From positions 122,588 through 186,587 of the forward strand of contig JAMCSY010000004.1 of NCBI GenBank assembly GCA_023379125.1: a DNA stretch of 64,000 nucleotides. The letters run 5' to 3'. Position numbers and translations under genes: made by a program. This DNA comes from Patescibacteria group bacterium. Its GTDB lineage: Bacteria > Patescibacteriota > Microgenomatia > Daviesbacterales > UBA10151. The notes beneath the pieces were generated by a model. That model saw nothing but the letters and a program-made list of their open reading frames with translations, searched no databases and was not told the DNA's origin. This document shows, in pieces, positions 3,264 through 16,952 of the stretch (within the stretch, counting starts at the first letter, position 1; the number at the start of each line of letters is the position of its first letter).

Positions 3264-4127
3264 TTAGTCACACTTTTGGAAATCCTCTTTTCTAGCCCCA
3301 CAATGTGGACAGATAGTAACTCCTTTTCCTTTAGGAATAGGTTTACCACAAAGCTTATTAGGGCAATTAAAGTATTGTTTTGAGTGCTCACTCATATAAG
3401 CAAAGGCTGTCCAATTAACCGGGCAACTGGGAGCATTCTCACCCACAGCACCTATCATCGCTAAATGATCGATAAGTAATTCTGTATCCACCTTGCCATA
3501 CATAGTTACTAACTGATCATAATAATCCTGAATTTGTCCCAAAGCTTCTTCTTTAACTTTAATATCCTTACTACTCCTGATCACTGACAAGTCCAAATTA
3601 TCAACTAGTTCCTCAAGTAAATATGTCCAATTTAAGCCTTGGGTTTTTAGTACCAATGGTGTTGCTCTAACTTGATCTAGAGATGATAAAAAGGGTCGAT
3701 CTTCACTAAATTGGGCCAAATCTCGAGCAAACTGCAAACTGTCTTGTTCATCAAGATCAAGCATAATTGCTCGATTATAGAGATACTTAATCCCTGATTG
3801 TTGGTCTAAATTACTAACTATTATTTTGGAAGCTGGGTAAATTCCTGCAGCTGGTGGACTGACCCAAGCAATAACTCCCTGCTGATGATCACTAACCCAA
3901 TCTTCAATTAAATCAAAGACCTGCCCTTCTAATTGACCAACCAAAGAAGTTCTATCAACCTGTTTTTTAATACCAACCCCTGTTTTTGGAGAAAACAGTT
4001 TCCCCTCGGGTGTTGCCACAAAATAATAAAAATCAGGAATTCTTCTTGTTTCAAAGACGTATGAGGAAGCTTCCCAGGCTGCTTGTGTTAGTGAAGGGGT
4101 TTTTTGATCTACTTGAGTTTCTAACAT
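3264..4127 (-). CDS. Hypothetical protein with a C-terminal Cys4 zinc-ribbon (CPNKLCGKP...CPHCG).
   Basis: 287-aa ORF co-oriented with the 1442..3163 gene. A CxxxxC...CxxC cluster sits at the C-terminus. Confidence 0.5.
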   Translation of the reverse strand: MLETQVDQKTPSLTQAAWEASSYVFETRRIPDFYYFVATPEGKLFSPKTGVGIKKQVDRTSLVGQLEGQVFDLIEDWVSDHQQGVIAWVSPPAAGIYPASKIIVSNLDQQSGIKYLYNRAIMLDLDEQDSLQFARDLAQFSEDRPFLSSLDQVRATPLVLKTQGLNWTYLLEELVDNLDLSVIRSSKDIKVKEEALGQIQDYYDQLVTMYGKVDTELLIDHLAMIGAVGENAPSCPVNWTAFAYMSEHSKQYFNCPNKLCGKPIPKGKGVTICPHCGARKEDFQKCD

Positions 4128-4494
4128 ATTGCTCCTGCTACGGGAAAAACCATCCTTGGATGGTGCGGTCGGTCTCCTGGCTTACCTTTTGCAAAAAAAG
4201 GATTACAGTTGCGGCACAGCTTCTGACTTACACAGAATTCCCTTTTGTGCTTTGCTTCAAAAACTGAAGTAGCACACCGCTTAATCCACGCTATCAAAGA
4301 TTAATTCTTGATGTCAAGACTTAAACCATTTGAGCGAGTTAATACCAAAAATACATTGATCAGTTATAAATTGCTGTTGATAAGTTCTCAAATGATCCTT
4401 TTTGAGGCCCTAGACAAGTGTTTTTTCACGCAATAGCATGAAGAATGATTTCCAACCTTTTGACCAAAGAACAAGACCACTCTCTCACCAGAGA

Positions 4495-4598: not shown

Positions 4599-6029
4599 AT
4601 GGAGCCTCATCCAGTACCACAAAACATAACTTCCTTTGAATTTCATTTAGTTGGGGATATGACACTCAAGCAATTTGGCTATCTAGCTACTGGTTTAGGT
4701 ATTGCTTATTTAATTTTTGTCTTACTTTTTAATACAATACCACTTTTAGCAATCACCCTCATTGCTATTTCGGCAGGTTCTGGGTTTGCTTTTGCCTTTC
4801 TGCCTCTTTATGATCGCCCACTATCACACTGGGTCTCAGCTTATTTTCGAGCTATTTATTCTCCCACTAAACGCTATTGGCAAAACCCTTTAAGTCCCAA
4901 CAGCACAGTTTCTGCTGATGATCCAGCTTTTAGAAATAGACTCAAAGACTTTTTAAGTACAATCGTTTCAGCTGAGCCACAGGCACCAACTCCAACCTCT
5001 GCTGAAAACCTAATTATTCAAAATCAACCATCACCAACTCCAGCAAGCCCCAGCACTAATAAGCCTGTAACTCTAGCAGATCAAAACTCAATACCATCTA
5101 ACTCGCAAATAGAGCAACCTCAACCTACGAGCAACTCCTCTCAAGCTTCTTCTATCACAGCTCAAAACAACCAAGAGCCAGTTGTTTCTTTTTCACCTAC
5201 TAACTCCACTCCGAATAACCCAACAGCTGTTAATACTTCCCCATCTCCCCAGCCAATCACCAGCCCCTATTTTGCCTCCACCCAACCCACTCAGCAAACA
5301 ACTTTTAATCAGGTAACCACCACACAGCAGACAATACCTATGATTGGAGTTACTAATCCAGCACCTATAACTCCTCTGCCAGTTGTTCATCCCCCTGCTC
5401 CACCGAGCTCTACTCCCCCATCTCCTCAAGACATGCCCAGGCCAGAAGAGCTAACCGAGCTTGTCAAACTAGCTCAGGAGGCACGTTCTGTACAATCCAA
5501 AGTAGCAGAAACTCAACGGCGGATTAATGAAATCAAAGCTTCAATCTCCACCCAGGGTAGTCAAAGTGCTGATTATACCGAACAGGCTCAGCAAATGTTC
5601 TCTAACCTGCAAAACTTAATCAAAGAAACTGAGGACCTGTCGACTAAAACCTCACAAATTGTTAAAACTAGTCCAAAAGCTAAGGCGCCAAAGGTCGTAG
5701 TTGTTCAACCCACCAAGCGCACACCAACTCAAGTTTTACTAACCTCAACCCCTAATGTGATCAATGGCATCGTAACAGATCCCGAGGGTAACTACTTAGA
5801 TGGCGTCATTGCCATTATCCATAACAAAGATAATTTACCTGTTAGAGCTTTAAAGACTAATAAGTTAGGCCAGTTTGCAGGCGCTACTCCTCTACCTTCC
5901 GGAGTCTATACCTTAACTCTAGAAAAAGACAATTTGGAGTTTGATTCCATTCAAATTACTTTAAACGGTGAGGTTTTGCCACCAATTAATATCTCAGCCA
6001 AGAGAGGAGTGACAGTTTTAAATGATTAA
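4599..6029 (+). CDS. Membrane protein with four parts. They are an N-terminal 2-TM hairpin (VirB3/PrgI-like position and topology), a long P/T/S/Q-rich low-complexity linker, a coiled coil and a C-terminal carboxypeptidase-regulatory-like beta-sandwich domain.
   Basis: Two adjacent hydrophobic helices at residues 25-70. Disordered segment at about 100-270. Coiled-coil heptads at about 275-340. C-terminal motif GIVTDPEGNYLDGVIAII...LPSGVYTLTLEKD is typical of CarboxypepD_reg/Cna-B-like folds. An 8-nt overlap with the next gene suggests an operon. Confidence 0.5.
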   Translation: MEPHPVPQNITSFEFHLVGDMTLKQFGYLATGLGIAYLIFVLLFNTIPLLAITLIAISAGSGFAFAFLPLYDRPLSHWVSAYFRAIYSPTKRYWQNPLSPNSTVSADDPAFRNRLKDFLSTIVSAEPQAPTPTSAENLIIQNQPSPTPASPSTNKPVTLADQNSIPSNSQIEQPQPTSNSSQASSITAQNNQEPVVSFSPTNSTPNNPTAVNTSPSPQPITSPYFASTQPTQQTTFNQVTTTQQTIPMIGVTNPAPITPLPVVHPPAPPSSTPPSPQDMPRPEELTELVKLAQEARSVQSKVAETQRRINEIKASISTQGSQSADYTEQAQQMFSNLQNLIKETEDLSTKTSQIVKTSPKAKAPKVVVVQPTKRTPTQVLLTSTPNVINGIVTDPEGNYLDGVIAIIHNKDNLPVRALKTNKLGQFAGATPLPSGVYTLTLEKDNLEFDSIQITLNGEVLPPINISAKRGVTVLND

Positions 6030-7047
6030 TAGCACTCAAGACCATATCCCTATCGAAGATATCGTTAACAATTTGGTTTTTCTCAAAGATGGTAGTGTTG
6101 CTCTTGTCATTACTACTTCCGCAGTGAACTTTGGTCTACTTTTTGAAACAGAACAAATAGCCATCATAGATGCATTTGCTGGTTTTCTTAATTCTCTATC
6201 CTTTCCTATTCAAGTTACTATTATTTCCCGTCGATTAGATGTTTCCTCGTATCTGGATACCATCGATCGTGCAAGGGCCAGGCAAAAAAATCAAGCTTTG
6301 TTAGCCATGACTGATCATTACCGACAATTTGTGGAAAGTCTAATTAAAGAGAAGAATGTCTTAGAGAAAAAATTTTATGTTACTTTAAATGTTAGCGGTC
6401 CAGAGTTAGGCTTTTTTAAGCGCAGCACCCTCGATCGCTCCCGTAAAGCAATTACTGTACTTAATCCCCGTAAAGACCATGTTCTTCGACAACTCTCGCG
6501 AATCGGCCTTAAAGCTCGACAGTTGTCAACGGAAGAGCTCGTTAAGCTTTATTATGATATTTATAATCCTGAATACAGCGAAAGCGAGATTGCTGTGGCA
6601 GGCTCAGAAGAAGAATCAGCTGAGACTGAACCTACTTCTGAGAACAAACAACCAGGCGCACCAGTTTCACTTTCTGGAATCCTACAATCACTAGTTTCTC
6701 CTCAAAAACAATCAAGCAACCAAGAACTTACTCCTCCCCAGGAAACAGTTGTTCCTAGTCCAGCCACAACAACCCAGGCAAAACCAGAAATATTTACCAC
6801 CCAAAACACAGCTGAGGAAACTCCTCCAACTCAACCCTTGACAGAGCCAATTGCTCCTGCTGAACCTATTACTCCTTCAGTAACCCCACAACCGCAATTA
6901 GCTCAACCTAGTGCCTTACATCCCTTGTTTTTTGATGCCACCCCCCAAACCTCAACTGTGCAACCTACTCAACCTAGCCAAGCCAACCCTAGTAACACTA
7001 ACACACCATTTGTAGTTGAGGAGCTACCAGAAAATGGCCAACAATAA
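6022..7047 (+). CDS. VirB4/TrbE N-terminal domain protein (CagE_TrbE_VirB-like) with a 150-aa P/T/Q-rich disordered tail. It is the N-terminal half of a split VirB4.
   Basis: The motif IPIEDIVNNLVFLKDGSVALVI...EQIAIIDAFAGFLNSLSFPIQVTIISRRLD matches the conserved VirB4 N-terminus (LKDGSL...RR.D). It ends 14 nt after the ATG of the downstream ATPase gene. Confidence 0.6.
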   Translation: MINSTQDHIPIEDIVNNLVFLKDGSVALVITTSAVNFGLLFETEQIAIIDAFAGFLNSLSFPIQVTIISRRLDVSSYLDTIDRARARQKNQALLAMTDHYRQFVESLIKEKNVLEKKFYVTLNVSGPELGFFKRSTLDRSRKAITVLNPRKDHVLRQLSRIGLKARQLSTEELVKLYYDIYNPEYSESEIAVAGSEEESAETEPTSENKQPGAPVSLSGILQSLVSPQKQSSNQELTPPQETVVPSPATTTQAKPEIFTTQNTAEETPPTQPLTEPIAPAEPITPSVTPQPQLAQPSALHPLFFDATPQTSTVQPTQPSQANPSNTNTPFVVEELPENGQQ

Positions 7048-8767
7048 CCAAATCATCAAAATTCAAGATGTCATCGCCCCAAACAGCCTTGAGGTCGATT
7101 TCACTTACGTTCGCATTAATAAATATCTATATCGAACTTTTTTTGTGGCCGGTTACCCCCGTTTTGTTGAGCCAAATTGGTTAGAGCCACTGGTCTCTTT
7201 CGAGCACTCATTGTTAGTTTCTATGTTTATTTATCCCACTGCTTCCTCTGGAACACTCGAGGATCTTAAAAGAAAGATTGCCGAGATGGAGGCTACCATC
7301 CAAACAGATATTGAAAGAGGACGTGTTGTTGATCCATCAGTAGCTGTTGCTTTAGACGATGCTCGCGAACTACAAGAACAACTTGCTAAGGGAGCTGAGA
7401 GATTTTTCCAGTTTGGTTTATATCTTACAGTTCCTTCAATTGATGTCCAAGAACTAGACAATAGCTCTCAAGTCGTGGAATCTACTCTGGGGAGTATTTC
7501 AATCACTGCACATCCCAGTTCTCTGGAAATGGAAGATGGATTCATCACTACCATGCCTTTAGGTAGAGATAATCTCTATCTAACCCATAACATGGATACC
7601 ACTTCACTGGCTACCACTTTTCCCTTTACTTCATCTGAGCTAACTGCTCCTGAGGGAGTAGTATATGGAATCAATGAGCACAATGATTCCCTGATTATCT
7701 TTGACCGTTTCAGTCAAGAAAATGCTAATTCGGTAGTCTTGGCTACTTCTGGTGCTGGAAAATCGTATATGGTTAAACTAGAAACACTTCGGGCTTTAAT
7801 TCTCGGAGCAGAAGTAATCATTATTGACCCCGAAAAAGAATATGAAGAACTGGCTAAGGCAGTTGGTGGTAGCTATATTAACTTTTCCACCTCTTCTCCA
7901 GTTAAACTTAATCCTTTTGATCTACCAGAGGTCAGCGAGGCTGGAGAAAACGAGCTAGGGAGAAAAATCCTTTCCTTAACTGCTTTTTTGAAGCTAGTTT
8001 TAGGTGATTTAACAGCTCAGGAATCAGCTATTTTAGACCGCGCTTTAAATACCACCTACCGCCTGAAAGGAATCACCCAGGATCCCAAAACCCAGACTGA
8101 TCCTAATATTAAACCTCCGCTGATGGAGGATTTATATAAAGTGCTAATTGGCATGGAAGATCAAGTGTCTTCTGAGTTGGCTATTAGACTAGAACGGTTT
8201 ATTAAAGGTTCCTTAACTGGAATTTTCTCTTCTTATTCTAATCTGAAAATTAATAATCAGTTCACTGTCTTTACAGTCAGAGAGCTACCTGATCAACTAA
8301 GACCACTCGCGATGCATCTGATCCTGGATTATATTTGGACCAAAATCAGAGGTGATTTAAAAAAACGATTACTTGTTGTTGATGAAGCTTGGTATATGAT
8401 GCGTTATCCAGATTCTGCTAACTTTTTGGTAGAGATGGTCAAACGGGCGAGAAAATACTATTTAGGCGTAACAACTATTTCCCAAGACGTAGAAGATTTT
8501 ATTGGTCAAGATAGAGGTAAGGAGATTGTTTCTAACTCAGCTATGCAAGTCTTACTAAAACAAGCCCCTGCTTCAATTGAAACCATTGGTAAGGTTTTTA
8601 ATCTGTCTTACGGAGAAAAGAGACTGCTACTTTCAGCTGGAGTTGGTCAAGGGATTTTCTTCGCTGGTAATACTCATGTAGCAATGAGAGTTGTGGCATC
8701 TGAAGAAGAGCACCAACTAATTACTAGTAATCCACAAGAAATCCTCGCCAGAAGAGGTCCTGTTTAG
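7034..8767 (+). CDS. virB4: VirB4-family T4SS ATPase, C-terminal core. This includes the YPRFVEPNWLEPL region and the Walker A and Walker B (DEAW) motifs.
   Basis: Walker A ATSGAGKSY and Walker B LLVVDEAWYMM, the classic VirB4 DEAW. A TISQDVEDF motif is present. GAGGAG SD at 7018-7023 lies 10 nt before the ATG at 7034. The ORF track lists an alternative TTG at 7016. Confidence 0.8.
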   Translation: MANNNQIIKIQDVIAPNSLEVDFTYVRINKYLYRTFFVAGYPRFVEPNWLEPLVSFEHSLLVSMFIYPTASSGTLEDLKRKIAEMEATIQTDIERGRVVDPSVAVALDDARELQEQLAKGAERFFQFGLYLTVPSIDVQELDNSSQVVESTLGSISITAHPSSLEMEDGFITTMPLGRDNLYLTHNMDTTSLATTFPFTSSELTAPEGVVYGINEHNDSLIIFDRFSQENANSVVLATSGAGKSYMVKLETLRALILGAEVIIIDPEKEYEELAKAVGGSYINFSTSSPVKLNPFDLPEVSEAGENELGRKILSLTAFLKLVLGDLTAQESAILDRALNTTYRLKGITQDPKTQTDPNIKPPLMEDLYKVLIGMEDQVSSELAIRLERFIKGSLTGIFSSYSNLKINNQFTVFTVRELPDQLRPLAMHLILDYIWTKIRGDLKKRLLVVDEAWYMMRYPDSANFLVEMVKRARKYYLGVTTISQDVEDFIGQDRGKEIVSNSAMQVLLKQAPASIETIGKVFNLSYGEKRLLLSAGVGQGIFFAGNTHVAMRVVASEEEHQLITSNPQEILARRGPV

Positions 8768-8821: not shown

Positions 8822-10966
8822 ATGGCTGATCAAGATATCAAGCTTTTAAAAGATACTGAGGATTTAATTCGTGCCTACAATACTGATACCTCGTTTCGTC
8901 ATCGTGTTGATGATTTAATTAATTACCCTGGAGCCACTTATAAGAACAGGCCACTGAGACTTTATGTCTTAACAGTGACCCGCTTTGCTCCCCAATATAA
9001 AGAATACGAACGTTCGAGCAAGCAAAATCCACAAAGAATTTCTGATTTGTTTGTAAACTTTTATAGAGATGGTCCTTTTTCTCGCTTTGCCAGAGAAGCT
9101 ACTACTGACAAAATCTATGGCACGAGAGAGAAAGAGGTTTTAAAAAACATCGAGCAAGATACAGCCCATCCTCAAGAGCAATATAGAAGCTACCATCAAT
9201 TCCTCAATGAGCAAGAAAAACAAGATTCCACACCAGATGAATCGGGAACTGTTGCTGCACCCAGTGCCCAACCAGAGCCTCAGCCAACCAAACCTCCAGC
9301 TCCTAACGATACCGAGACTCCAGAAGTCAGTGTGGAAGCTAATCAGGAACCGACAGAGCCTGCACAGACATTCCTTGCAGAAAACACACAATCTCCTGTA
9401 GAGGTTACAACTGCACCATCAGAAATCACAACAGAATCTTCACCGCCGTCTGTTACTGAAGCTACCCCAACTGAGGCAGTGATAGTTGAGCCACTACCCA
9501 CCACTTCAACATCAGCTAAACTTCCCACAACACCCACAATACAAACTCCCAATATTAAAACACCAAATTTCATAAAAAATATTTCTTCAAGAGTACAAAT
9601 TACTATCAAAAAAATCACTGATAAGATCCCAAGTCAGGTAGGAAACCTATTAGCAGAAATTGGTGGAACTATTTTGGGTACTAAAAAACCTGCCACCGCC
9701 ATACCGTCACCCATAGCCTCCAAATTAGGCGAGCAGACAGAACAAACAATTAGTACATTGCAAATTGGAGCCAAAAAAACTGCTAGCAAGCTATTTTCAT
9801 CACAAACCCTCATAAACTTACTAAACGAGGCAAAAAGTTATATTTTAGGTACGAACGCACAACCTAAATCAACCTCACCGACTATTGGACAATCTCCTGC
9901 TGTCAATAAAACTTTCACTGACATCAGGATTTGGACTAAAAAATTCATCACTCGTTATGCCACACCACGAAAAGTCTTTGCCGGAGTAACAGGAACTATC
10001 GGAGCAGCAGTCGGTGGTGGAGCTACTGGAACATGGGAGGGAGCAGTAGTCGGAGCCGGTACCGGCATAGCAATTGGTATGACTGCACCATCAGTACTTA
10101 GAGAAGACAACACTAATTCCATACTAAATACTGGTGGAAGTATCATGGACAAAGGTGCTGGGTTAATAAATCGTGCCTTTACAACTCAGAATAGAGCCAG
10201 AATTCTTCTCCGGACTGGAAAAGCTTTACTTAGCACGCCCCAAGGGCGGATTGCTGTGATTATAGTTACGGTCGTTATTCTTCTGATTATCTGGATGATT
10301 GCTGACTTACCAAGATCTAGCACTCCCTTCACCCCATATCCTTTGAATGAGTCTGGGCCAGAGATCGGCAATGGGACAACCGGACCAGGCGGCGTACCAA
10401 TTACACCCGGCCCTACTCCACCCCCTGGATCAGATTTAAGCAGCGTACTCGCTTGGGCCAGAATGATTAATGATGAATTAGTTTTAGCAGGTAGCAGTTA
10501 TACTGGACTACCCATCGCTATTTCCAATAACGGCTATACTACTGGTGTTTGGGCTTCTGGTTATGTCTGCACTTACCTCGTCATTGATGCCTATAATCTG
10601 GCTGGTTTTACAGGAACTAGTAAAGCTGCTAACGGTGCTGTTGTTAACTTAGAAAGCTTCTGGAAATCTGCTGGTGATCAAGGTTATATCTATGTTGACT
10701 ATCAAGCAAATCATCAAAATCTACAATATGTTAAACCTGGCTATGCTATCTTTGAAGAACAAATACCAGGAGTCTATACTGGTAATGAGCATACGGCCAT
10801 CGTAACTAATGTTTCAATTGATGCTAATGGTAATGGTTCAATTACTACTATTGATGCTAATGGTGGATTTTATAAGGGCTGGACATACACTGTTTCTAAT
10901 TGGAATATAATTAATACATTCACCGGTAAGTATGGTGAAATAATTACTGGTTTTGGAGGACACTAG
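8822..10966 (+). CDS. Membrane-anchored cell-wall hydrolase with a C-terminal CHAP (NlpC/P60-like) domain. It is the functional analogue of PrgK/VirB1. It has an N-terminal cytoplasmic domain of unknown function and a low-complexity linker.
   Basis: Single TM segment (RIAVIIVTVVILLIIWMIADL) followed by a Pro/Gly linker. The C-terminus has WASGYVCTYLV...GNEHTAIVTNV, a Cys...His CHAP-type catalytic pair arrangement. Confidence 0.55.
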   Translation: MADQDIKLLKDTEDLIRAYNTDTSFRHRVDDLINYPGATYKNRPLRLYVLTVTRFAPQYKEYERSSKQNPQRISDLFVNFYRDGPFSRFAREATTDKIYGTREKEVLKNIEQDTAHPQEQYRSYHQFLNEQEKQDSTPDESGTVAAPSAQPEPQPTKPPAPNDTETPEVSVEANQEPTEPAQTFLAENTQSPVEVTTAPSEITTESSPPSVTEATPTEAVIVEPLPTTSTSAKLPTTPTIQTPNIKTPNFIKNISSRVQITIKKITDKIPSQVGNLLAEIGGTILGTKKPATAIPSPIASKLGEQTEQTISTLQIGAKKTASKLFSSQTLINLLNEAKSYILGTNAQPKSTSPTIGQSPAVNKTFTDIRIWTKKFITRYATPRKVFAGVTGTIGAAVGGGATGTWEGAVVGAGTGIAIGMTAPSVLREDNTNSILNTGGSIMDKGAGLINRAFTTQNRARILLRTGKALLSTPQGRIAVIIVTVVILLIIWMIADLPRSSTPFTPYPLNESGPEIGNGTTGPGGVPITPGPTPPPGSDLSSVLAWARMINDELVLAGSSYTGLPIAISNNGYTTGVWASGYVCTYLVIDAYNLAGFTGTSKAANGAVVNLESFWKSAGDQGYIYVDYQANHQNLQYVKPGYAIFEEQIPGVYTGNEHTAIVTNVSIDANGNGSITTIDANGGFYKGWTYTVSNWNIINTFTGKYGEIITGFGGH

Positions 10967-10972
10967 CAGCAA

Positions 10973-11635
10973 ATGAATCGCACAATTGTCAAGTTGGTTG
11001 TCATAATCATAATTTTGGCTATAGCGTTAGTAGGCACAATCCTGTGGTTAAATAGTCACAATCAAATAGCAGCTATCACTCCTACGGATCAATCCACTGA
11101 TGTTAATATACTCTCTCCTATCCAAGTAACTTTTGCCAAACCTTTTGATAGTAATGCTCAAAAGATGGTTACCTTTTGGACATCACCAGATACTAGTGGC
11201 AAAATAACTTGGTCTGATGATGGTAAAACAGTAACCTATACTCCACAACCACCACTTACTAGTAGCCAAAAATATATCGCTAAAGTTACTTATCTTTCTA
11301 ATCAAAATTTTATCTGGAGTTTTTCAACTACTGCTTTTAATCAGCTGACCCCTGAACAACAAACACAAGCTCAACAACAAGCAGATCAAAATGTGGCCAA
11401 CCAAAGAAACGATCTGCTACAAAAATACCCTTGGTTTCTTAAACTGCCAATTCAAAAGCTAAACTACTTTGTCTATTTTGACCCCACCACTGAGGAATTT
11501 ACGGCCAAAATTTATACCAACAATACTCAAGTTTCCAGTGCTGATTTACAAAAACAGGTTCTAATTGAACTACAAACTTTAGGAATTGATACTAATAAAT
11601 ACAAAATTAATTGGGAAATAAACCCTTCATCTTAA
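10973..11635 (+). CDS. N-terminally TM-anchored protein with an Ig-like (SbsA/Big-like) beta domain. Its position corresponds to VirB8/PrgL-type T4SS subunits.
   Basis: Signal-anchor MNRTIVKLVVIIIILAIALVG. The motif ITPTDQSTDVNILSPIQVTFAKPF...TVTYTPQPPL...YIAKVTY fits the P.dg.t.v.....i.v.F...Y.v.v Ig-like pattern. It is tightly packed in the operon. Confidence 0.45.
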   Translation: MNRTIVKLVVIIIILAIALVGTILWLNSHNQIAAITPTDQSTDVNILSPIQVTFAKPFDSNAQKMVTFWTSPDTSGKITWSDDGKTVTYTPQPPLTSSQKYIAKVTYLSNQNFIWSFSTTAFNQLTPEQQTQAQQQADQNVANQRNDLLQKYPWFLKLPIQKLNYFVYFDPTTEEFTAKIYTNNTQVSSADLQKQVLIELQTLGIDTNKYKINWEINPSS

Positions 11636-11644
11636 AGTTAGTTG

Positions 11645-12097
11645 ATGGAAATTTTCAAAAAGAAACTTATTTGGTTAATTTTAGCTTTGGGAGCAGCTTT
11701 GATCGCTCTTTTTAGTCACGGACTTTATACTGCTACACCTGTACAAACCCTACCCTCTCAACAAACACCTACTATTAATTCTGAACCTCAAGTCATAAAG
11801 ACCGATCCAGATCCACTTAATCAGGCCACTATTTTACCCAATCAAACCATCAGTTTAGAATTCAACTACCCTCTGCAAAATAAAGACGAGTTAAAAATTA
11901 AAATTGATCCTAGTACCGAATTTGAAGTAAATTTAAGTTCTGATCGTAAAACGGCACAAATTACCTTTCCTAATCCACTTGATTTGGGTAGGGCCTATTC
12001 TTTAGTCATCGGTCCAGATACAAAATTTGATGGGGCAAAAAATTTAGGTCATGATATCCAATACCAATTTAAAACTATCAACTACCAGGGAGTCTAA
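11645..12097 (+). CDS. Paralog of the 10973 gene. It is TM-anchored with an Ig-like beta domain.
   Basis: Signal-anchor followed by VIKTDPDPLNQATILPNQTISLEFNYPL...AQITFPNPLDLGRAYSLVI, the same motif pattern. The ATG at 11645 lies within the listed 11642 TTG ORF. Its stop is 3 nt from the dnaN stop. Confidence 0.45.
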   Translation: MEIFKKKLIWLILALGAALIALFSHGLYTATPVQTLPSQQTPTINSEPQVIKTDPDPLNQATILPNQTISLEFNYPLQNKDELKIKIDPSTEFEVNLSSDRKTAQITFPNPLDLGRAYSLVIGPDTKFDGAKNLGHDIQYQFKTINYQGV

Positions 12098-12100
12098 TCA

Positions 12101-13201
12101 TTAGCTTAAGTTTACAGGCATAATAATATATTCTAATCCTTCCTCACCCATTGGTTTTATAATTGCTGCAGAAAGATTTCCTGATAACTCCAAGATTACT
12201 TGGGAAGCTGAGGTAGTAGATAAAGCATCTTGTAAAAACTTAGTATTAAAAGCAATTTCAATCTCCTCTCCTTCTGTCTGGGAAGTTACCTCTCTTTGTT
12301 GATGGCCTAATTGTTTAGCCTCAGAATTAAGAGTTAACTTGGAAGCAGAATTAAGTAGCTTGACTATGTTTGTTTCATTTCGAGCAAAGATCGAAGCCAG
12401 TTTAACTGCTTTTAGTAAATCTTCTCTGCCAGTAATAACTCTTGCTTTGCAAGCAGTCGGAATAATTCTCTCCCAAGCCGGAAATTGACCTTCAATCAAA
12501 CGAGAAGAAACCATCGTAGTCCCAAATTTAAAGATAATTTGATTTTGGTTTTCCGAAGTGGAAATCTCTACTAAATCGGCTTCATCTTCATTAATTAGCC
12601 TTAAAACCTCCTCAAAAGTTCTTCTTGGTACCAAAACCCGCAAATTCTCTTCTTCTGCAATGGGAACGATTTTATGAGCCAAGCGGTATCCGTCAGTAGC
12701 CACTAGTTGCAATTTTTTATCCTTAATTTCTGTCAGAATACCAGTTAGAATAGGCCTCCCATCGTCAGCTGCTGAAGCAAAAGCTACTTGAGGCAAAGAA
12801 CTAATTAATATTTGTGGTGAAATTTTTACTGCTGCTTTACCAGATAATGGAATTGTGGGAAATTCCGTAGCAGCAATACCGTTAATTTGGGAGGAAAAAG
12901 AAGGACTGCTAATTTTCAGCTGGTCAGCAGTGCTTTCAAATTCCAACTGCTCTCCTGATAAATTAGCCACAATCTCGACCAGAGTTTTGGCTGGAACAGT
13001 CACTTCCCCTACTTCACTGTTTTCTGCTTTTAATGTTTTAACTACCCCAATCTCTAGATTTGTCGCGGAAAGCTTTAATTTATCTTGATCCGTGGAAATT
13101 AGGATATTACCTAAAACAGGTAGTTGTGCCCTCACTCCTGCTGAACGAGCTACAGATTGTAAACTTGGCCAAAGATCTTGTTGTAAAATTTTAAACCTCA
13201 T
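12101..13201 (-). CDS. dnaN: DNA polymerase III beta sliding clamp.
   Basis: 366 aa. The N-terminus MRFKILQQDL...ATNLEIGV is typical of DnaN. The gene is located downstream of dnaA. Confidence 0.9.
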   Translation of the reverse strand: MRFKILQQDLWPSLQSVARSAGVRAQLPVLGNILISTDQDKLKLSATNLEIGVVKTLKAENSEVGEVTVPAKTLVEIVANLSGEQLEFESTADQLKISSPSFSSQINGIAATEFPTIPLSGKAAVKISPQILISSLPQVAFASAADDGRPILTGILTEIKDKKLQLVATDGYRLAHKIVPIAEEENLRVLVPRRTFEEVLRLINEDEADLVEISTSENQNQIIFKFGTTMVSSRLIEGQFPAWERIIPTACKARVITGREDLLKAVKLASIFARNETNIVKLLNSASKLTLNSEAKQLGHQQREVTSQTEGEEIEIAFNTKFLQDALSTTSASQVILELSGNLSAAIIKPMGEEGLEYIIMPVNLS

Positions 13202-13209
13202 TTGCTGCC

Positions 13210-13668
13210 TTAAGATTCTACCCTTCTTTGAGCAGTGACAAAATGATGAATTTCTTCTTCACTAACTTTAATCAAGCGAAAATTAACTCGGCCATTAGCA
13301 ATTAGGTTTTTAATGTGTTTTTCTTCATCTGTCAAGACTGCTGATTGTCCAGATTTAACTTCAATAAAATCGATTCTGTTGTTATTCTTGATACCAATAA
13401 AGTCAATTGGCCACCCTAAAGGGACAATTCGGTCATAATCATATCTTAGTTCAGCATAGGTCAAAAGTTCAGCCATCTTGCCTTTTTGAGGGTTTATGGA
13501 GCCTTGTATGGTCTGTAAAACTTTAACTGGTAAATCTTGTACACCTTTGTATAGATCAATTAAATCTGTAGGGATTTCTTGTTGTGGTTTGCTATGTAGT
13601 CTACCAATAAGATAAGCAACTATTATGCCTAAAATAATTATTACGATATAGGTAAAATTTATCTCCAT
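13210..13668 (-). CDS. Small membrane-anchored PD-(D/E)xK nuclease-like protein, NERD-like. It sits between dnaA and dnaN.
   Basis: N-terminal TM segment. Motif WPIDFIGIKNNNRIDFIEVKSGQ gives PD ... ExK spacing of about 14 residues. It ends 8 nt before the dnaN start. Confidence 0.4.
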   Translation of the reverse strand: MEINFTYIVIIILGIIVAYLIGRLHSKPQQEIPTDLIDLYKGVQDLPVKVLQTIQGSINPQKGKMAELLTYAELRYDYDRIVPLGWPIDFIGIKNNNRIDFIEVKSGQSAVLTDEEKHIKNLIANGRVNFRLIKVSEEEIHHFVTAQRRVES

Positions 13669-13689
13669 AAATGTTTGTTGATAGTTATC

Positions 13690-13953
13690 CTCAAGTTATC
13701 CACCAACTAGATTGTTAAAACTTTGATATAAATACTCAGTCATAATATTAGTAGTGTCAGTTGATATGTGTATAAAACGTTTAAAATAAGCATATTTAAA
13801 CGGTGGATAACTATAAAAAGTAATTTTTAAGTTGAGAATTTAGTTGCAAGCTAAGAGCTTTGGGCATAAGTTTTCGGATCTTCTTAGTGTGTAAAAAGTA
13901 TAACATAGTTGTGGATATCTTAGTGGATAACTTGCCTGTTATTGTGGATATCT
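13690..13953. promoter_or_regulatory. oriC-type DnaA-box cluster with an AT-rich unwinding stretch in the dnaA-dnaN intergenic region.
   Basis: TTATCCACC at 13696-13704. TGTGGATAA-type boxes at 13802-13810, 13910-13918, 13922-13930 and 13943-13951 (TGTGGATAT, GTGGATAA). AT-rich stretch taaaacgtttaaaataagcatatttaaa at about 13770-13800. Confidence 0.6.
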
Positions 13954-15282
13954 TCATGCTTGTAAAGATTGTTTAATCTCGATTAACATTCGTTGAATTT
14001 CCCGGTCACGATTAACTGATTCACGAATCTTCTCTACCCCATGTAAAACTGTTGTATGATCTCGTCCACCTAAAATATCCCCAATTCGTTCATAAGGCAA
14101 TTTACACTCCTCATATAGTAAATACATTGCTAACTGTCTTGGTAAGACAAGTTCCTTCTTTCTTCTGGGGCCAACTATTTCTGCCATTTTTATATTGAAA
14201 TATTGATTAATCTCGCTAATAACTTTCTTATAATCAATTTTCTGCTCACTAATTCCAGGTTTTCCTAGAATTTTTCTGGCAAAATCTATAGTTAATTCCT
14301 CGCCAGAAAGCTTAGCTGTTTGAATAACTTGTAGTAGTTTGCCTTCTAGCTCACGGGCGTTGGTTGGAAAAACTTCCGCAATTAGGGTCAAGATCTCTTC
14401 AGGAACAATTTCTCCCCTTTCTTCACCCTTAGCTCTTAAGATGGCTACCCTAGTATCAAAATCAGGTTGTTGAATATCAACCATTAAGCCTCCCTGAAAA
14501 CGCGATAATAATCTTGATTCAAGTTTCTGCATCTCTTGGGGTGGACGATCAGAAGTTAAAATAATTTGTGACCCATTGGTATGTAATTCATTGAACGTAT
14601 GGAAAAATTCCTCTTGAGTAGAATCTCGACCAGAAATGAATTGAATATCATCAACTAAGAGCAGATCACACATGCGATACTTACCTCTAAACTCACCGGT
14701 TCGTTTGTTTTGAATACTCTGAATAAAATCATTAGTAAACTTTTCTGAGGAGCAATAAACAATTTTAATTCGGGGGTTTTTTTGAAGCAAAGCATTTCCA
14801 ATACCATGCATGAGATGGGTTTTGCCAACCCCTGTTCCACCGTAGATAAATAAAGGATTATAGCTTAACCCAGGATTTTGAATTACAGCTTGGGCAGCTG
14901 CATAGGCTAGATTATTAGAAAGTCCAACAACAAAGTTTTTCATTGTATGCTTGGTGTTTAAACCATGCTCGTGAGTATTAACAGGTAAATTATTTAATAG
15001 GTCAAGTTCAATTAGGCTATCAGGTGGGTTAATATTTTCCTGAGAAGAATCAATCGTGATTTCAAAGTTGATATTTTGTCCAAAAACTTGGCTAATAGAA
15101 CTTTGTAATAGCTCTTGGTACTTACTACTTAGCTGTTGTTTAATAAAAGCAGAAGGGACACTAATTAATAATTTTTTGGCTGTTTGTTCTTGCAAAAGAC
15201 TTTGGGCAAACCAGGTTCGATAATTAGCAGCTGAGACCTGCTCTTTAATTAGTGTTAGCACTTTGGCCCACTGCTTCTCCAT
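13954..15282 (-). CDS. dnaA: Chromosomal replication initiator DnaA.
   Basis: AAA+ Walker A GGTGVGKTHL and a C-terminal DNA-binding domain. The likely true start MEKQWAKVLTL at 15282 matches the conserved DnaA N-terminus. The ORF track's 15348 start adds 22 non-conserved residues. Confidence 0.9.
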   Translation of the reverse strand: MEKQWAKVLTLIKEQVSAANYRTWFAQSLLQEQTAKKLLISVPSAFIKQQLSSKYQELLQSSISQVFGQNINFEITIDSSQENINPPDSLIELDLLNNLPVNTHEHGLNTKHTMKNFVVGLSNNLAYAAAQAVIQNPGLSYNPLFIYGGTGVGKTHLMHGIGNALLQKNPRIKIVYCSSEKFTNDFIQSIQNKRTGEFRGKYRMCDLLLVDDIQFISGRDSTQEEFFHTFNELHTNGSQIILTSDRPPQEMQKLESRLLSRFQGGLMVDIQQPDFDTRVAILRAKGEERGEIVPEEILTLIAEVFPTNARELEGKLLQVIQTAKLSGEELTIDFARKILGKPGISEQKIDYKKVISEINQYFNIKMAEIVGPRRKKELVLPRQLAMYLLYEECKLPYERIGDILGGRDHTTVLHGVEKIRESVNRDREIQRMLIEIKQSLQA

Positions 15283-15304
15283 GGAAATGATATTAGTGTA
15301 AAAG

Positions 15305-15365
15305 TTATCCACATGACAAGATACAGTAAGTGTTTCGTAATAGATCATCCCCTACCTTGGGATAA
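15305..15365. promoter_or_regulatory. DnaA boxes in the dnaA upstream region. This is an autoregulatory element and the second oriC element.
   Basis: Perfect TTATCCACA at 15305-15313. TTGGGATAA (reverse complement TTATCCCAA) at 15357-15365. Confidence 0.45.
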
Positions 15366-15429
15366 AAAGATTGCAATCTTAACCCAAACTTAGTAAACTA
15401 TTTTCCTGAGAAGTTGAGATGTTTTAATT

Positions 15430-15567
15430 ATGAATATCGGTACATACCAACCAAGCAAAATAAAAAGAAAAAGAAAGCACGGATTTCGTGCCCGACAACA
15501 AACTCATGATGGCCAAAAAGTATTGAAACGAAGAATGGCCAAAGGTCGCAAAAGACTAAGTTTGTAA
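15430..15567 (+). CDS. rpmH: 50S ribosomal protein L34.
   Basis: 45-aa [48 protein letters not shown] not in the ORF track. It is the canonical L34 sequence. Its TAA overlaps the rnpA ATG (TAATG). Confidence 0.88.
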
Positions 15568-15908
15568 TGTTGTCAAAAGATAAACGCCTCAATATTAGTA
15601 GAAGTTTCCAATGGGTTATCAACGGACAAAAGATTGAAGATCAACTACTTAGTCTTTATTTTCGCTTGGGAGATAATGATCAACCAAAAGTAGGAGTGGC
15701 GATCTCCGCTAAAAAAATCAAAACGGCAGTGGCCAGAAATAAAACGAAAAGATTAATTATGCAAAGTTTGTCTGGGCTGTACACTAAATTGTTAAAAAAT
15801 ACTAATATTTTAGTAATGCCCAAAATTGATCTTGCCGGAAAAGATCAAAATAATATTCAAAAAAATATTGAACTACTATTACAAAAAGGCAGGCTGACTA
15901 ATGATTAA
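15567..15908 (+). CDS. rnpA: RNase P protein component.
   Basis: 113-aa basic protein directly after rpmH. RnpA-like KRL...R motifs are present. Confidence 0.8.
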   Translation: MLSKDKRLNISRSFQWVINGQKIEDQLLSLYFRLGDNDQPKVGVAISAKKIKTAVARNKTKRLIMQSLSGLYTKLLKNTNILVMPKIDLAGKDQNNIQKNIELLLQKGRLTND

Positions 15909-16104
15909 AAAAATAGTTATGGAACTAATTAAGTTTTACCAAACATTCTTATCTTTCGATCGAGGTCTATTATCAATTATTGCACCAGGTGGAGCTTGTA
16001 AGTACTCCCCCACTTGCTCAGAATATACCAAACAGCAAGTTGAACGCTTGGGAGTGTTACGCGGGATAATCTTAGGAGGAAGAAGGATTTTGTCATGTCG
16101 ATAG
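15901..16104 (+). CDS. yidD: Membrane protein insertion efficiency factor YidD.
   Basis: 67 aa with the CKYSPTCSEY motif. It sits between rnpA and yidC. Confidence 0.8.
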   Translation: MIKKIVMELIKFYQTFLSFDRGLLSIIAPGGACKYSPTCSEYTKQQVERLGVLRGIILGGRRILSCR

Positions 16105-16952
16105 GAGCAATTTTTAATACGATCTTCTTTGATCCAATTGTTAATTTACTAGTACTGATTTTTCATGGTTTAGAAACAGTGTCTATTCCAGGAGCATTAG
16201 GTTTTTCAATTATTCTCTTAACAATTTTGATTCGAATGTTGGTGTGGCCGTTTATGAATGCTCAACTGCACTCAGCACGCAGAATGGCTGAACTTAAACC
16301 AGAAATAGATAAATTGAAAGAAAAGCATGGTAGTGACAAACAAGCTTTTGCTGCAGCGCAGATGGCTTTATATAAAGAAAGAAATATTAATCCAGCTGGT
16401 GGTTGTTTACCAGCAATTATTCAATTACCAGTAATTTGGGCACTTTACCAAACAATTTATGCATTTTTCTCAGGTAGTGCTGGACTAGAAAGAATTAACA
16501 ACGCTCTTTATGTAGCAAACTGGAAATTAACTCAAACGCCAAACTTGGATTTTTTTGGCTTGAATTTAGCTAATAAACCAGCTGAGTTTGGTCAAATTGG
16601 CATTTTAGTCCTGCTGATTCCCCTACTCACAGCTACACTCACTTTAGTGCAGTCAAAAATGATGACACCTCCTCAGATTAAAGCTTATCCACAGGATACT
16701 AAAAAGGAAAAAGAAGAAAAACAATCAACGGACGAATCGATTGCGGCAATGCAATCTCAAATGACTTATCTGATGCCATTGATGATTGGTTATTTCGCTT
16801 TCCAGTTTCCTATTGGCCTCGCTTTATACTGGAATACTTTTACGATATTAGGTATAATCCAACAATACTTTGTTTCAGGTTGGGGCGGCTTAAAAAGTTG
16901 GCTAAGTTTTTTAAATAGACCTAACTTGAAATTAAATAAAGTTAATAAATAG
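16095..16952 (+). CDS. yidC: Membrane protein insertase YidC (short Gram-positive-type).
   Basis: 285 aa with multiple TM segments and YidC/Oxa1 core motifs. Position in the rnpA-yidC-jag cluster. Confidence 0.85.
   Translation: MSIGAIFNTIFFDPIVNLLVLIFHGLETVSIPGALGFSIILLTILIRMLVWPFMNAQLHSARRMAELKPEIDKLKEKHGSDKQAFAAAQMALYKERNINPAGGCLPAIIQLPVIWALYQTIYAFFSGSAGLERINNALYVANWKLTQTPNLDFFGLNLANKPAEFGQIGILVLLIPLLTATLTLVQSKMMTPPQIKAYPQDTKKEKEEKQSTDESIAAMQSQMTYLMPLMIGYFAFQFPIGLALYWNTFTILGIIQQYFVSGWGGLKSWLSFLNRPNLKLNKVNK

What the first reader, a model, noticed from the sequence alone, without database searches (positions are those of the whole stretch)
6022..8767. VirB4 is split into two translationally coupled genes, and the N-domain gene carries a 150-aa disordered tail
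ORF 6022-7047 carries the conserved VirB4 N-terminal block (LKDGSV...FPIQVTIISRRLD). It then runs into a P/T/Q-rich low-complexity tail. ORF 7034-8767 carries the next conserved VirB4 blocks (AGYPRFVEPNWLEPL, Walker A, DEAW). The second ATG at 7034 lies 14 nt inside the first ORF and follows a GAGGAG SD at 7018-7023. That layout looks like genuine translational coupling rather than a random frameshift. A naturally two-subunit VirB4 would be unusual. The alternatives are a programmed frameshift, a sequencing indel, or a decaying gene.
Basis: partly seen in the sequence, partly recalled or inferred. Interest (0 to 1): 0.7.

Follow-up and report, generated by a model that had tools for sequence, protein, structure and literature searches.

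The report
Two-gene VirB4 ATPase (TrsD + VirB4)
The secretion-system motor VirB4 really is encoded as two adjacent genes here, but this is the normal, already described arrangement in this group of ultra-small bacteria; the only fresh detail is a floppy tail ending in a conserved seven-residue tip.

Summary
ORF1 (6022-7047) is the first ~190 residues of VirB4 plus a 150-aa P/T/Q-rich tail. ORF2 (7034-8767) is the rest of VirB4. They overlap by 14 nt, with GAGGAG upstream of the ORF2 ATG.

It is not an indel, a frameshift or a decaying gene:
- The junction is identical in two independent assemblies.
- 79 of 80 species-level relatives have the same two genes, in all three relative frames, from overlaps to gaps of about 190 nt.

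It is not unusual either. ORF1 belongs to the TrsD / Pfam "TraC-like" family. The literature reports this family next to virB4 in most Patescibacteria and in staphylococcal pGO1/pSK41 plasmids. pSK41 TrsE starts at the same VirB4 model position as ORF2.

Spliced in silico, the two ORFs give one continuous VirB4 match. An AlphaFold model of the pair superposes on full-length TrwK/VirB4.

I found no published description of two details:
- The tails vary greatly in length and sequence but mostly end in a conserved tip, PF(V/I)VEEL.
- Fused relatives and minimal (~200-aa) split relatives have neither tail nor tip.

The tip's function is inferred only; AlphaFold did not dock it.

The parts
4599..6029 (+). 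PrgI (VirB3-like) gene, first gene of the T4SS operon. It has an N-terminal PrgI membrane domain, a long P/T/Q/S-rich linker, and a weak match to a carboxypeptidase-regulatory-like domain at the C-terminus. It overlaps ORF1 by 8 nt.
   Evidence: Pfam PrgI matches aa 5-92 (E 9e-7). CarboxypepD_reg matches aa 388-456 at 22.7 bits, below the family's 32.3 cut-off. The same gene sits in the same position in relatives.
6022..7047 (+). ORF1: a TrsD / 'TraC-like' (PF26593) protein of 341 aa. It is the stand-alone first part of the VirB4 N-terminal domain plus a tail.
6022..6591 (+). Folded N-domain, aa 1-190, equivalent to positions 1-171 of the full-length VirB4 model.
   Evidence: NCBIfam hits. hhalign against pSK41 TrsD gives probability 86.8%, E 4e-6. 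AlphaFold pLDDT is about 80-96.
6592..7005 (+). P/T/Q-rich intrinsically disordered tail, aa 191-328.
   Evidence: Composition. pLDDT is below 50. Tail length and sequence are hypervariable in 263 relatives: median 100 aa, maximum 582. No tandem repeats were found.
7006..7026 (+). Conserved C-terminal tip PFVVEEL, aa 329-335, six residues before the stop.
   Evidence: P0001 and 135 of its 261 stand-alone relatives have the tip (136 of 262), as do 57 of 80 junctions (56 of 79 loci plus the window). F330, E333, E334 and L335 are invariant in alignment A1. The codons vary synonymously.
7018..7023 (+). GAGGAG: the two Glu codons of the tip, which double as a Shine-Dalgarno-like site 10 nt upstream of the ORF2 ATG.
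7034..7047 (+). 14-nt overlap between the ORF2 start (ATG 7034) and the ORF1 stop (TAA 7045-7047).
   Evidence: The sequence is identical in L084 and L085.
7034..8767 (+). ORF2: the remainder of VirB4 (577 aa), comprising the second half of the N-terminal domain and the ATPase domain.
   Evidence: conju_CD1110 positions 185-733 at 363 bits, above the 325 cut-off. Pfam P-loop_TraG, AAA_10 and DUF87. The best Foldseek hits are VirB4 structures.
7748..7765 (+). Walker A motif (SGAGKS).
   Evidence: G581, G583, K584 and S585 are invariant in A5.
8375..8392 (+). Walker B motif (VVDEAW).
   Evidence: D791, E792, A793 and W794 are invariant in A5.
8822..10966 (+). Downstream operon gene of 714 aa: a low-complexity region, hydrophobic segments, and a C-terminal Cys/His-containing domain. 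The function is not established.
   Evidence: No Pfam or NCBIfam hit. The syntenic gene in relative L083 carries Peptidase_M23. pSK41 has a membrane protein and a CHAP hydrolase at this position.

Best explanation
This is the chromosomal type IV secretion system of a Patescibacteria (Microgenomatia / Daviesbacteria-like) genome, located next to dnaN and dnaA. Its VirB4 motor ATPase is naturally encoded as two polypeptides.

ORF1 is a TrsD / 'TraC-like' protein that supplies the first ~190 residues of the VirB4 N-terminal domain. ORF2 supplies the rest of that domain and the Walker A/B ATPase domain.

Shown:
- The two genes are co-oriented in one operon (prgI-like, trsD-like, virB4).
- In this genome the ORF2 start lies inside the end of ORF1, behind a Shine-Dalgarno-like GAGGAG.

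Inferred:
- This layout favours coupled, roughly equimolar translation.
- The two polypeptides then reassemble non-covalently into a VirB4-shaped unit that hexamerises on the PrgI/VirB3 membrane platform.

The break lies in a permissive inter-subdomain linker. At this point evolution has switched repeatedly between fused genes, minimal ATGA-coupled splits and splits with a tail.

In the Daviesbacteria-type lineage the ORF1 side of the break has expanded into a hypervariable, disordered P/T/Q-rich tail ending in the conserved acidic-hydrophobic tip PF(V/I)VEEL. My best guess is that this is a flexible tether carrying a short docking motif for ORF2, a neighbouring subunit or another T4SS component. 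This step is inferred and was not tested successfully. It would resemble the disordered linker and acidic tip of SSB.
For: **Complementarity of the two ORFs**
- ORF1 matches VirB4 model positions 1-171 and ORF2 matches 185-733.
- Splicing N-domain aa 1-190 onto ORF2 in silico gives one continuous hit over positions 1-733 of 752, at 401 bits against a 325 cut-off.
- An AlphaFold model of ORF1+ORF2 reaches mean pLDDT 81 and pTM 0.73. The alignment contained 37 naturally fused homologues.
- The model's best PDB matches are full-length TrwK/VirB4 of R388: 8rtd_O at E 3.6e-27 and TM 0.71 over 799 residues, and 7o43.

**Conservation of the split**
- The top 120 ORF1 homologues are all stand-alone proteins of 195-341 aa.
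- The top 120 ORF2 homologues are all 563-618 aa.
- 79 of 80 species-level loci carry both genes side by side, in all three relative frames.
- The window's junction is identical in independent assemblies.

**Precedent**
- pSK41 TrsD (227 aa) is followed by TrsE (672 aa), and TrsE begins at model position 183.
- hhalign of the ORF1 family against TrsD gives 86.8% probability.
- PMC12102498 reports the TrsD-VirB4 association across Patescibacteria and says that PMC10633639 lists the TrsD homologue next to virB4 in Ca. Southlakia epibionticum as essential. PMC10633639 itself, as read, reports an essential T4SS gene cluster there and does not name VirB4 or TrsD.

**A labile break point**
- 43 of the top 120 hits to P0349 are genuinely fused proteins of 738-897 aa, with linkers of 0-37 aa (three of 60-92 aa).
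- Close relatives of these are split by an ATGA overlap, with 198- and 217-aa N-domain genes.

**The tip**
- It is present in 57 of 80 junctions (56 of 79 loci plus the window), including 9 where the ORF2 start lies more than 60 nt past the ORF1 stop.
- Its codons vary synonymously: 4 Pro, 4 Val and 6 Leu codons.
- It is absent from all fused forms, from the two minimal splits read and from pSK41 TrsD (its N-domain match runs to aa 219 of 227).
Against: - No experiment shows that the two polypeptides bind each other in any Patescibacterium. The model's N-domain/ORF2 packing rests on an artificial concatenation and on fused homologues in the alignment. Only pLDDT and pTM were available, not PAE.
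- AlphaFold left the tip undocked, at pLDDT about 35, so the tether-and-docking idea has no structural support.
- Many split relatives have no tail at all: Amesbacteria-type at 198-217 aa, Gottesmanbacteria-type at about 214 aa, and pSK41. The tail is therefore not required for the split to work.
- Translational coupling is inferred from geometry only, and 17 of 80 relatives have gaps above 25 nt.
Confidence: 0.85

Rival explanations
1. The split is an artefact or a recent lesion: a sequencing or assembly indel, or a frameshift mutation in a decaying gene.
For: ORF2 is in the +1 frame relative to ORF1 and overlaps it. Taken alone, that is what a 1-nt indel would produce.
Against: - The junction is base-identical in two further assemblies from different samples, which differ from the window by SNPs elsewhere.
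- 79 of 80 species have the split, and both genes are under clear purifying selection: 55-78% amino-acid identity with invariant catalytic motifs.
- An indel would not explain a 150-aa tail with a conserved terminal motif.
Confidence: 0.01
2. A programmed +1 ribosomal frameshift in the 14-nt overlap produces a fused full-length VirB4.
For: The overlap and +1 frame relationship. Fused VirB4 proteins exist in related lineages.
Against: - There is no recognisable slippery or stall motif in ATGGCCAACAATAA.
- Relatives place the genes in frames 0, +1 and +2, with ATGA overlaps or gaps of up to ~190 nt, so no conserved recoding site exists.
- ORF2 has its own ATG and SD-like site.
- Natural fusions have short linkers, not a 150-aa tail.
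Confidence: 0.03
3. ORF1 is an independent accessory or regulatory protein that merely descends from a VirB4 N-terminus. It does not complete the VirB4 fold of ORF2. For example, it could act as an assembly factor, an adaptor or an inhibitor.
For: - The literature lists TrsD as having no assigned function.
- In Gracilibacteria TrsD homologues are not next to virB4.
- The tail and tip look like an interaction module.
Against: - ORF2 and pSK41 TrsE lack exactly the segment that ORF1 or TrsD provides, with a breakpoint at model position 183-185.
- Fused and split forms interconvert among close relatives at the same point.
- The concatenated model superposes on full-length TrwK at TM 0.71.
Confidence: 0.1
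4. The tail is functionless linker expansion, of the low-complexity kind common in Patescibacteria proteins. Its conserved end is maintained only because it overlaps the ribosome-binding region of ORF2.
For: - P/T/Q-rich stretches also occur in the two flanking genes.
- The tail's length and sequence are unconstrained.
- The first Glu codon of the tip is GAG in 72% of cases, against 34% in the background. In many loci GAGGA(G) is the only SD-like element.
Against: - The tip is retained where ORF2 starts 69-194 nt downstream of the ORF1 stop: L026, L031, L043, L044, L046, L049, L072, L079.
- Conservation spans seven residues including P, F, V and L, which lie outside the SD, and these show free synonymous variation.
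- A second, unrelated tip, LPP(L/I)(P/A)EI, ends the 350-700-aa tails of a more distant subgroup.
Confidence: 0.15

Closest known systems
TrsD-VirB4 pairs of the Patescibacteria T4SS (Quinonero-Coronel et al. 2025, PMC12102498; Ca. Southlakia epibionticum ML1, Wang et al. 2023, PMC10633639)
   Same: - The same protein families and the same gene order: PrgI/VirB3-like, TrsD-like, VirB4.
- The same chromosomal position near dnaA and dnaN.
- The window is simply one of these loci. NCBI lists its ORF1 as a 'hypothetical protein' of a Patescibacteria group bacterium.
   Different: - The paper calls TrsD a remote homologue of the VirB4 N-terminus with no assigned function.
- In the passages I read it does not state that the adjacent VirB4 lacks that segment.
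- Those passages also do not describe the disordered tail, the terminal tip or the fused clade.
TrsD/TraD + TrsE/TraE of staphylococcal conjugative plasmids pGO1/pSK41 (MPF-FATA, pGO1 subclass)
   Same: - A stand-alone N-domain protein is followed directly by an N-terminally truncated VirB4.
- The breakpoint is the same: TrsE starts at model position 183 and ORF2 at 185.
- A small VirB3-position gene precedes it with a 14-nt overlap.
   Different: - pSK41 TrsD is 227 aa with no tail and no PFVVEEL tip.
- trsD and trsE are separated by a 14-nt gap rather than an overlap.
- The system is plasmid-borne and conjugative, with a relaxase and a coupling protein.
- ORF1 scores only 27.7 bits on the TrsD model, against a cut-off of 200.
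Full-length VirB4 (TrwK of R388, PDB 8RTD/7O43; CD1110-family VirB4 of Gram-positive ICEs; fused Amesbacteria-type VirB4)
   Same: ORF1 N-domain plus ORF2 reproduce the complete domain content and the predicted fold.
   Different: These are one polypeptide. In the fused Patescibacteria proteins the equivalent linker is 0-37 aa (three of 60-92 aa) and lacks the tip.
VirB3-VirB4 fusions (for example on Campylobacter plasmids, cited in PMC12102498)
   Same: They show that gene boundaries around VirB4 are evolutionarily plastic.
   Different: The change goes the opposite way, as a fusion of neighbouring genes rather than a fission inside VirB4. PMC12102498 found none in Patescibacteria.
Bacterial SSB C-terminal tail (disordered linker plus conserved acidic tip). 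This is an analogy from my own general knowledge, not a tool result.
   Same: The architecture matches: a folded domain, then a P/Q-rich linker that varies in length, then a short conserved acidic-hydrophobic tip at the extreme C-terminus.
   Different: There is no homology. No partner of the PFVVEEL tip is known.

Membership tests
VirB4 family T4SS ATPase (ORF1+ORF2 together) | Full-length match to a curated VirB4 model, above its cut-off | tested here: met
   ORF2 alone scores 363 bits on conju_CD1110 over positions 185-733, against a 325 cut-off. The spliced N-domain+ORF2 scores 401 bits over positions 1-733 of 752.
VirB4 family T4SS ATPase (ORF1+ORF2 together) | Walker A and Walker B nucleotide-binding motifs | tested here: met
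   SGAGKS is at ORF2 aa 239-244 and VVDEAW at aa 448-453. Both are invariant in alignment A5.
VirB4 family T4SS ATPase (ORF1+ORF2 together) | Fold: an N-terminal domain plus a RecA-like C-terminal domain, as in solved VirB4 structures | tested here: met
   The AlphaFold model (pLDDT 81) matches TrwK/VirB4 8rtd_O at TM 0.71 (target-normalised, E 3.6e-27). It matches the T. pseudethanolicus VirB4 C-terminal domain 4ag6 at TM 0.83. Caveat: the query chain is an artificial concatenation.
VirB4 family T4SS ATPase (ORF1+ORF2 together) | A single polypeptide | tested here: not met
   There are two ORFs in different frames, conserved as two genes in 79 of 80 relatives.
VirB4 family T4SS ATPase (ORF1+ORF2 together) | ATPase activity, hexamerisation and a requirement for secretion | not testable with these tools
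   This needs biochemistry or genetics. PMC10633639 reports an essential T4SS gene cluster in Ca. S. epibionticum but does not name VirB4 or TrsD; PMC12102498 says that study lists the VirB4-associated TrsD homologue as essential.
TrsD/TraD family (NCBIfam NF041427) / Pfam PF26593 'TraC-like' (ORF1) | Match to the family model | tested here: inconclusive
   On NF041427 the match runs nearly end to end (positions 14-200 of 201) but scores only 27.7 bits against a cut-off of 200. ORF1 is therefore a homologue, not a member of that narrow subfamily. A PF26593 hit is precomputed for this exact protein, but that model is not in the local Pfam copy. hhalign against pSK41 TrsD gives 86.8% probability, E 4e-6.
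TrsD/TraD family (NCBIfam NF041427) / Pfam PF26593 'TraC-like' (ORF1) | A stand-alone protein encoded immediately upstream of an N-terminally truncated VirB4, downstream of a VirB3-like gene | tested here: met
   The window has this order, as do pSK41 and relatives.
Translationally coupled gene pair | The downstream start lies within or abuts the upstream ORF, with a ribosome-binding site inside the upstream coding sequence | tested here: met
   There is a 14-nt overlap, and GAGGAG lies 10 nt upstream of the ATG. The same class of junction occurs in 44 of 80 junctions.
Translationally coupled gene pair | Translation of the downstream gene depends on translation of the upstream gene | not testable with these tools
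   This needs reporter fusions with premature stops in ORF1, or ribosome profiling.

The most novel reading that the evidence does not exclude
In Daviesbacteria-type Patescibacteria the fission of VirB4 was followed by a new module on the N-fragment. The module is a long, hypervariable disordered tether ending in a conserved acidic-hydrophobic tip, PF(V/I)VEEL. A second lineage has an unrelated tip, LPPLPEI.

On this reading the tip works like the SSB tail. It is a mobile docking peptide that recruits or regulates a partner: the ATPase fragment, a neighbouring protomer, or a substrate or adaptor of this essential, relaxase-less T4SS. That would give the motor a handle that fused VirB4s lack.
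Probability: 0.3. Interest if true: 0.5.

Novelty: new member of a known kind. Interest (0 to 1): 0.3.

Why it matters
The Patescibacteria T4SS is reported to be essential for the epibiotic lifestyle, and its mechanism is unknown (PMC10633639, PMC12857230).

This analysis shows that 'TrsD', listed in the literature as having no function, is exactly the missing N-terminal piece of the adjacent VirB4. It also shows that fused, minimally split and tailed forms interconvert at one linker. Together these give a concrete model for the motor's composition. They also provide natural controls for experiments: fused versus split, and tailed versus tail-less.

The conserved PFVVEEL tip is a small, directly testable handle. 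None of this changes the picture of T4SS biology. As a scan finding, the locus is an ordinary member of a described arrangement.

Tried and rejected
1. **Is the tip the 13 unaccounted VirB4 model positions (172-184)?** Rejected. Adding the tip to the in-silico splice lowered the score from 401 to 394.7 bits, and the fused relatives have no such sequence.
2. **Is the tip a by-product of the ORF2 Shine-Dalgarno site?** Rejected as the sole cause.
3. **AlphaFold on the concatenated pair without an alignment.** Useless, at pLDDT 35.
5. **Block alignments of unpaired ORF1-only and ORF2-only rows.** MAFFT misaligned them or spilled tails into ORF2 columns. I solved this by using naturally fused homologues as bridging rows.
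6. **Final model.** It did not dock the tip, so the tether hypothesis stays untested.
7. **Profile search of the ORF1 family against PDB sequences.** Nothing significant.
8. **Tandem repeats as a source of tail length variation.** None found.
9. **Promoter and terminator scan between the genes.** Nothing above the shuffled expectation.
10. **Pfam on the C-terminal domain of the 8822-10966 product.** No hit.
11. **Guglielmini 2014 main text.** It does not contain the word TrsD. The attribution of the TrsD-VirB4 homology to that paper rests on PMC12102498.

Full report
**1.

The window contains ORF1 at 6022-7047 (341 aa) and ORF2 at 7034-8767 (577 aa), in different frames. ORF2's ATG lies 14 nt inside ORF1, whose TAA stop is at 7045-7047. 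A GAGGAG sits at 7018-7023, 10 nt upstream of that ATG.

NCBIfam scans place the two ORFs on complementary parts of the 752-position VirB4 model conju_CD1110:
- ORF1 aa 5-185 fall on positions 1-171.
- ORF2 aa 8-550 fall on positions 185-733, at 363 bits against a 325 cut-off.

ORF2 has Walker A (SGAGKS, 7748-7765) and Walker B (VVDEAW, 8375-8392). ORF1 residues 190-341 are 81% P/T/Q/S/E/A/N/G/K, and AlphaFold predicts them as disordered.

**2. The split is not an artefact, a frameshift or decay.**

The exact ORF1 protein occurs on four contigs. Two of them were fetched: an NCBI MAG contig (GCA_023485375.1) and a Logan assembly of SRR10252151. They differ from the window by 4 and 2 SNPs, yet they are base-identical across 6951-7100.

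The homologue lengths show the same split:
- The best 120 ORF1 homologues are all stand-alone proteins of 195-341 aa.
- The best 120 ORF2 homologues are all 563-618 aa.

A scan of one genome per species returned 80 loci from Daviesbacteria, Gottesmanbacteria and other Microgenomates. In 79 of them the N-domain gene is followed directly by a separate VirB4 gene.

The figures below cover 80 junctions, the 79 loci plus the window. The relative reading frames are 0, +1 and +2 in 14, 30 and 36 junctions. The junctions vary widely:

| Junction type | Junctions |
|---|---|
| Overlap (16 are ATGA; 8 have the window's geometry) | 41 |
| Abutting | 3 |
| Gap of 25 nt or less | 19 |
| Gap of 26 to ~190 nt | 17 |

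No single indel, recoding site or recent lesion can explain this pattern.

**3. What it is.**

ORF1 also matches the 201-position NCBIfam TrsD/TraD model nearly end to end (27.7 bits, far below that model's 200 cut-off). It carries the precomputed Pfam family PF26593, 'TraC-like'.

The literature already describes the arrangement. Quinonero-Coronel et al. 2025 (PMC12102498) report the following:
- There are 2,272 homologues in 2,221 assemblies, 1,664 of them associated with VirB4.
- 2,425 VirB4 proteins in 2,407 assemblies form the Patescibacteria clade.
- TrsD has no assigned function.
- The paper states that Wang et al. 2023 (PMC10633639) list the TrsD homologue next to virB4 in Ca. Southlakia epibionticum as essential. 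In the passages I read, that paper reports an essential T4SS gene cluster and does not name VirB4 or TrsD.

I checked the plasmid prototype directly. In pSK41, trsD (227 aa) is followed by the VirB4 homologue TrsE (672 aa). TrsE aligns to conju_CD1110 positions 183-730, which is the same breakpoint as ORF2. A profile of the window's family aligns to pSK41 TrsD over the whole N-domain (hhalign probability 86.8%, E 4e-6).

The window's surroundings match the published picture of this chromosomal T4SS near the replication origin:
- a PrgI/VirB3-like gene lies upstream;
- dnaN and dnaA lie just downstream, then yidC;
- cumulative GC skew reaches its minimum near 15 kb.

**4. The two products together make one VirB4.**

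Splicing ORF1 aa 1-190 onto ORF2 in silico gives a single uninterrupted alignment to model positions 1-733, at 401 bits.

AlphaFold on the ORF1+ORF2 concatenation gave mean pLDDT 81 and pTM 0.73. The alignment contained 37 naturally fused homologues and 95 ORF2-type homologues. Both the N-domain (aa 1-189) and ORF2 were modelled at high confidence.

Foldseek's best PDB hits are full-length TrwK/VirB4 chains of the R388 T4SS: 8rtd_O at E 3.6e-27 and target-normalised TM 0.71 over 799 residues, and 7o43. The Thermoanaerobacter VirB4 C-terminal domain follows at TM 0.83.

Two caveats apply. The chain is an artificial concatenation, and no PAE was available.

**5. The break point is evolutionarily labile.**

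One of 263 ORF1-family members, P0349, was fused to the ATPase part. Searching with it uncovered a genuine fused clade:
- 43 of the top 120 hits are 738-897 aa, with both parts present.
- Several of them were seen on more than one contig and in several data sources.
- Some are labelled Candidatus Amesbacteria.
- The linkers between the two parts are 0-37 aa, with three of 60-92 aa.

Split VirB4 proteins up to 88% identical to P0349's C-part also exist. Two such loci have N-domain genes of only 198 and 217 aa, joined to virB4 by an ATGA overlap. Their C-termini end in '...GTRVKAL' and '...GTRVKI', the same GTRVK segment that forms part of the linker ('LLGTRVKFETK') in fused relatives.

VirB4 in this phylum therefore exists in three states: fused, minimally split, and split with a tail. 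The window shows the third state.

**6. The tail and its tip.**

Across 263 family members the segment after the N-domain has a median length of 100 aa and a maximum of 582. Its composition is P 17%, Q 11%, T 10%, A 9% and S 9%. The window's 150-aa tail is long but typical.

The tails cannot be aligned, yet most end in a conserved motif, PF(V/I)VEEL, followed by 1-9 mostly acidic residues:
- 136 of 262 stand-alone family proteins have it, P0001 among them.
- 57 of the 80 junctions (56 loci plus the window) have it.
- F330, E333, E334 and L335 are invariant in a 40-sequence alignment.

A more distant subgroup with 350-700-aa tails ends instead in LPP(L/I)(P/A)EI. Short Gottesmanbacteria-type proteins end in '...GYTKPLVEG...'.

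The tip is not merely a ribosome-binding site:
- It persists in loci where ORF2 starts 69-194 nt beyond the ORF1 stop.
- Its Pro, Val and Leu codons vary freely, with 4, 4 and 6 codons used.
- All four Glu-Glu codon pairs occur, although GAG is enriched at the first Glu (72% against 34% background).

The tip is absent from every fused protein, from the two minimal splits read and from pSK41 TrsD, whose N-domain match ends 8 residues before its C-terminus.

It is not part of the canonical VirB4 sequence. Including it lowers the spliced score from 401 to 394.7 bits. AlphaFold left it undocked at pLDDT about 35.

**7. Mechanism.**

Shown:
- Two conserved, co-oriented genes have complementary VirB4 content.
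- The junction geometry is compatible with translational coupling in this genome and in about half of its relatives.

Inferred:
- Coupled translation delivers both fragments in similar amounts.
- The fragments reassemble non-covalently into a VirB4-like protomer on the PrgI/VirB3 platform.

Speculative (about 0.3):
- The disordered tail is a flexible tether, and its acidic-hydrophobic tip docks on a partner. This would be analogous to the SSB C-terminal tail, a comparison I draw from general knowledge rather than from any tool result.

**8. Verdict.**

The headline, a naturally two-subunit VirB4, is the norm in this lineage and is already in the literature as TrsD plus VirB4.

The analysis adds three incremental points that I did not find in the papers I could read:
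- the exact complementarity and the breakpoint shared with pSK41;
- the fused clade and the minimal splits;
- the conserved tip on the hypervariable tail.

The locus is of moderate to low interest as a discovery. It is useful as a concrete, testable model for a component currently described as having no assigned function.

Noticed in passing
window 4150-4296 (- strand): A cobalamin riboswitch (Rfam RF00174, 58.9 bits, full-length) lies directly upstream of the minus-strand ORF 3264-4127 (287 aa, no Pfam hit). This suggests a B12-regulated gene of unknown function in a Patescibacteria genome.
   Followed up: no
window 4599-6029 (+): The PrgI/VirB3-like protein is unusually long at 476 aa. After the PrgI membrane domain come about 190 aa of P/T/Q/S-rich low complexity, a coiled-coil-like stretch, and a weak match to a carboxypeptidase-regulatory-like domain at the C-terminus (22.7 bits, below the 32.3 cut-off). 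Relatives have 262- and 310-aa versions.
   Followed up: partly
window 8822-10966 (+): The 714-aa product downstream of virB4 has no family hit. It shows a P/T/E-rich region, Gly/Ala-rich hydrophobic segments, and a C-terminal domain with Cys and His spaced as in papain-like (CHAP/NlpC) hydrolases. That spacing is my reading by eye and is not confirmed. The syntenic gene in L083 carries Peptidase_M23, and pSK41 has a CHAP protein at this position.
   Followed up: partly
window 10973-12097 (+): Two consecutive small ORFs, each with a Big_5 bacterial Ig-like domain, close the operon just before dnaN.
   Followed up: no
window 12101-16952: dnaN (12101-13201, -), a Holliday-junction-resolvase-like endonuclease (13210-13668, -), dnaA (13954-15348, -) and yidC (16095-16952, +) are present. 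Cumulative GC skew reaches its minimum at about 14-16 kb. The T4SS operon therefore lies beside the probable replication origin, as PMC12102498 reports for this phylum.
   Followed up: partly
proteins P0421, P0422, P0425, P0431, P0432, P0473, P0475, P0484, P0500: Some Patescibacteria VirB4 homologues are 1158-1215 aa and carry intein and LAGLIDADG homing-endonuclease domains (PF14890, PF14528). These are intein-interrupted VirB4 genes.
   Followed up: no
P0349, P0384-P0406, P0423-P0499; loci L082 and L083: A clade of naturally fused full-length VirB4 proteins (738-897 aa, some labelled Amesbacteria) sits beside very close relatives (up to 88% identity) that are split by a bare ATGA overlap. 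Both share a 'GTRVK' junction segment. This points to repeated gene fission and fusion at one linker.
   Followed up: partly
loci L010, L011, L024, L026, L029, L031, L034, L038, L041, L042, L044, L045 (ORF2 N-termini): In many relatives ORF2 carries a 20-70-aa N-terminal extension that the window lacks. It begins with a hydrophobic-basic motif such as LPFGKKDKPK, IFDKFKKQNK, YLFKKPKAQ or NIFKKGAAQK. Its charge is opposite to that of the acidic PFVVEEL-DD tip of ORF1. I did not test whether the two are related.
   Followed up: no
proteins P0280-P0367: A more distant subgroup of the ORF1 family has tails of 350-700 aa. These end at the extreme C-terminus in a different conserved tip, LPP(L/I)(P/A)EI, often followed by K, T or E.
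   Followed up: partly
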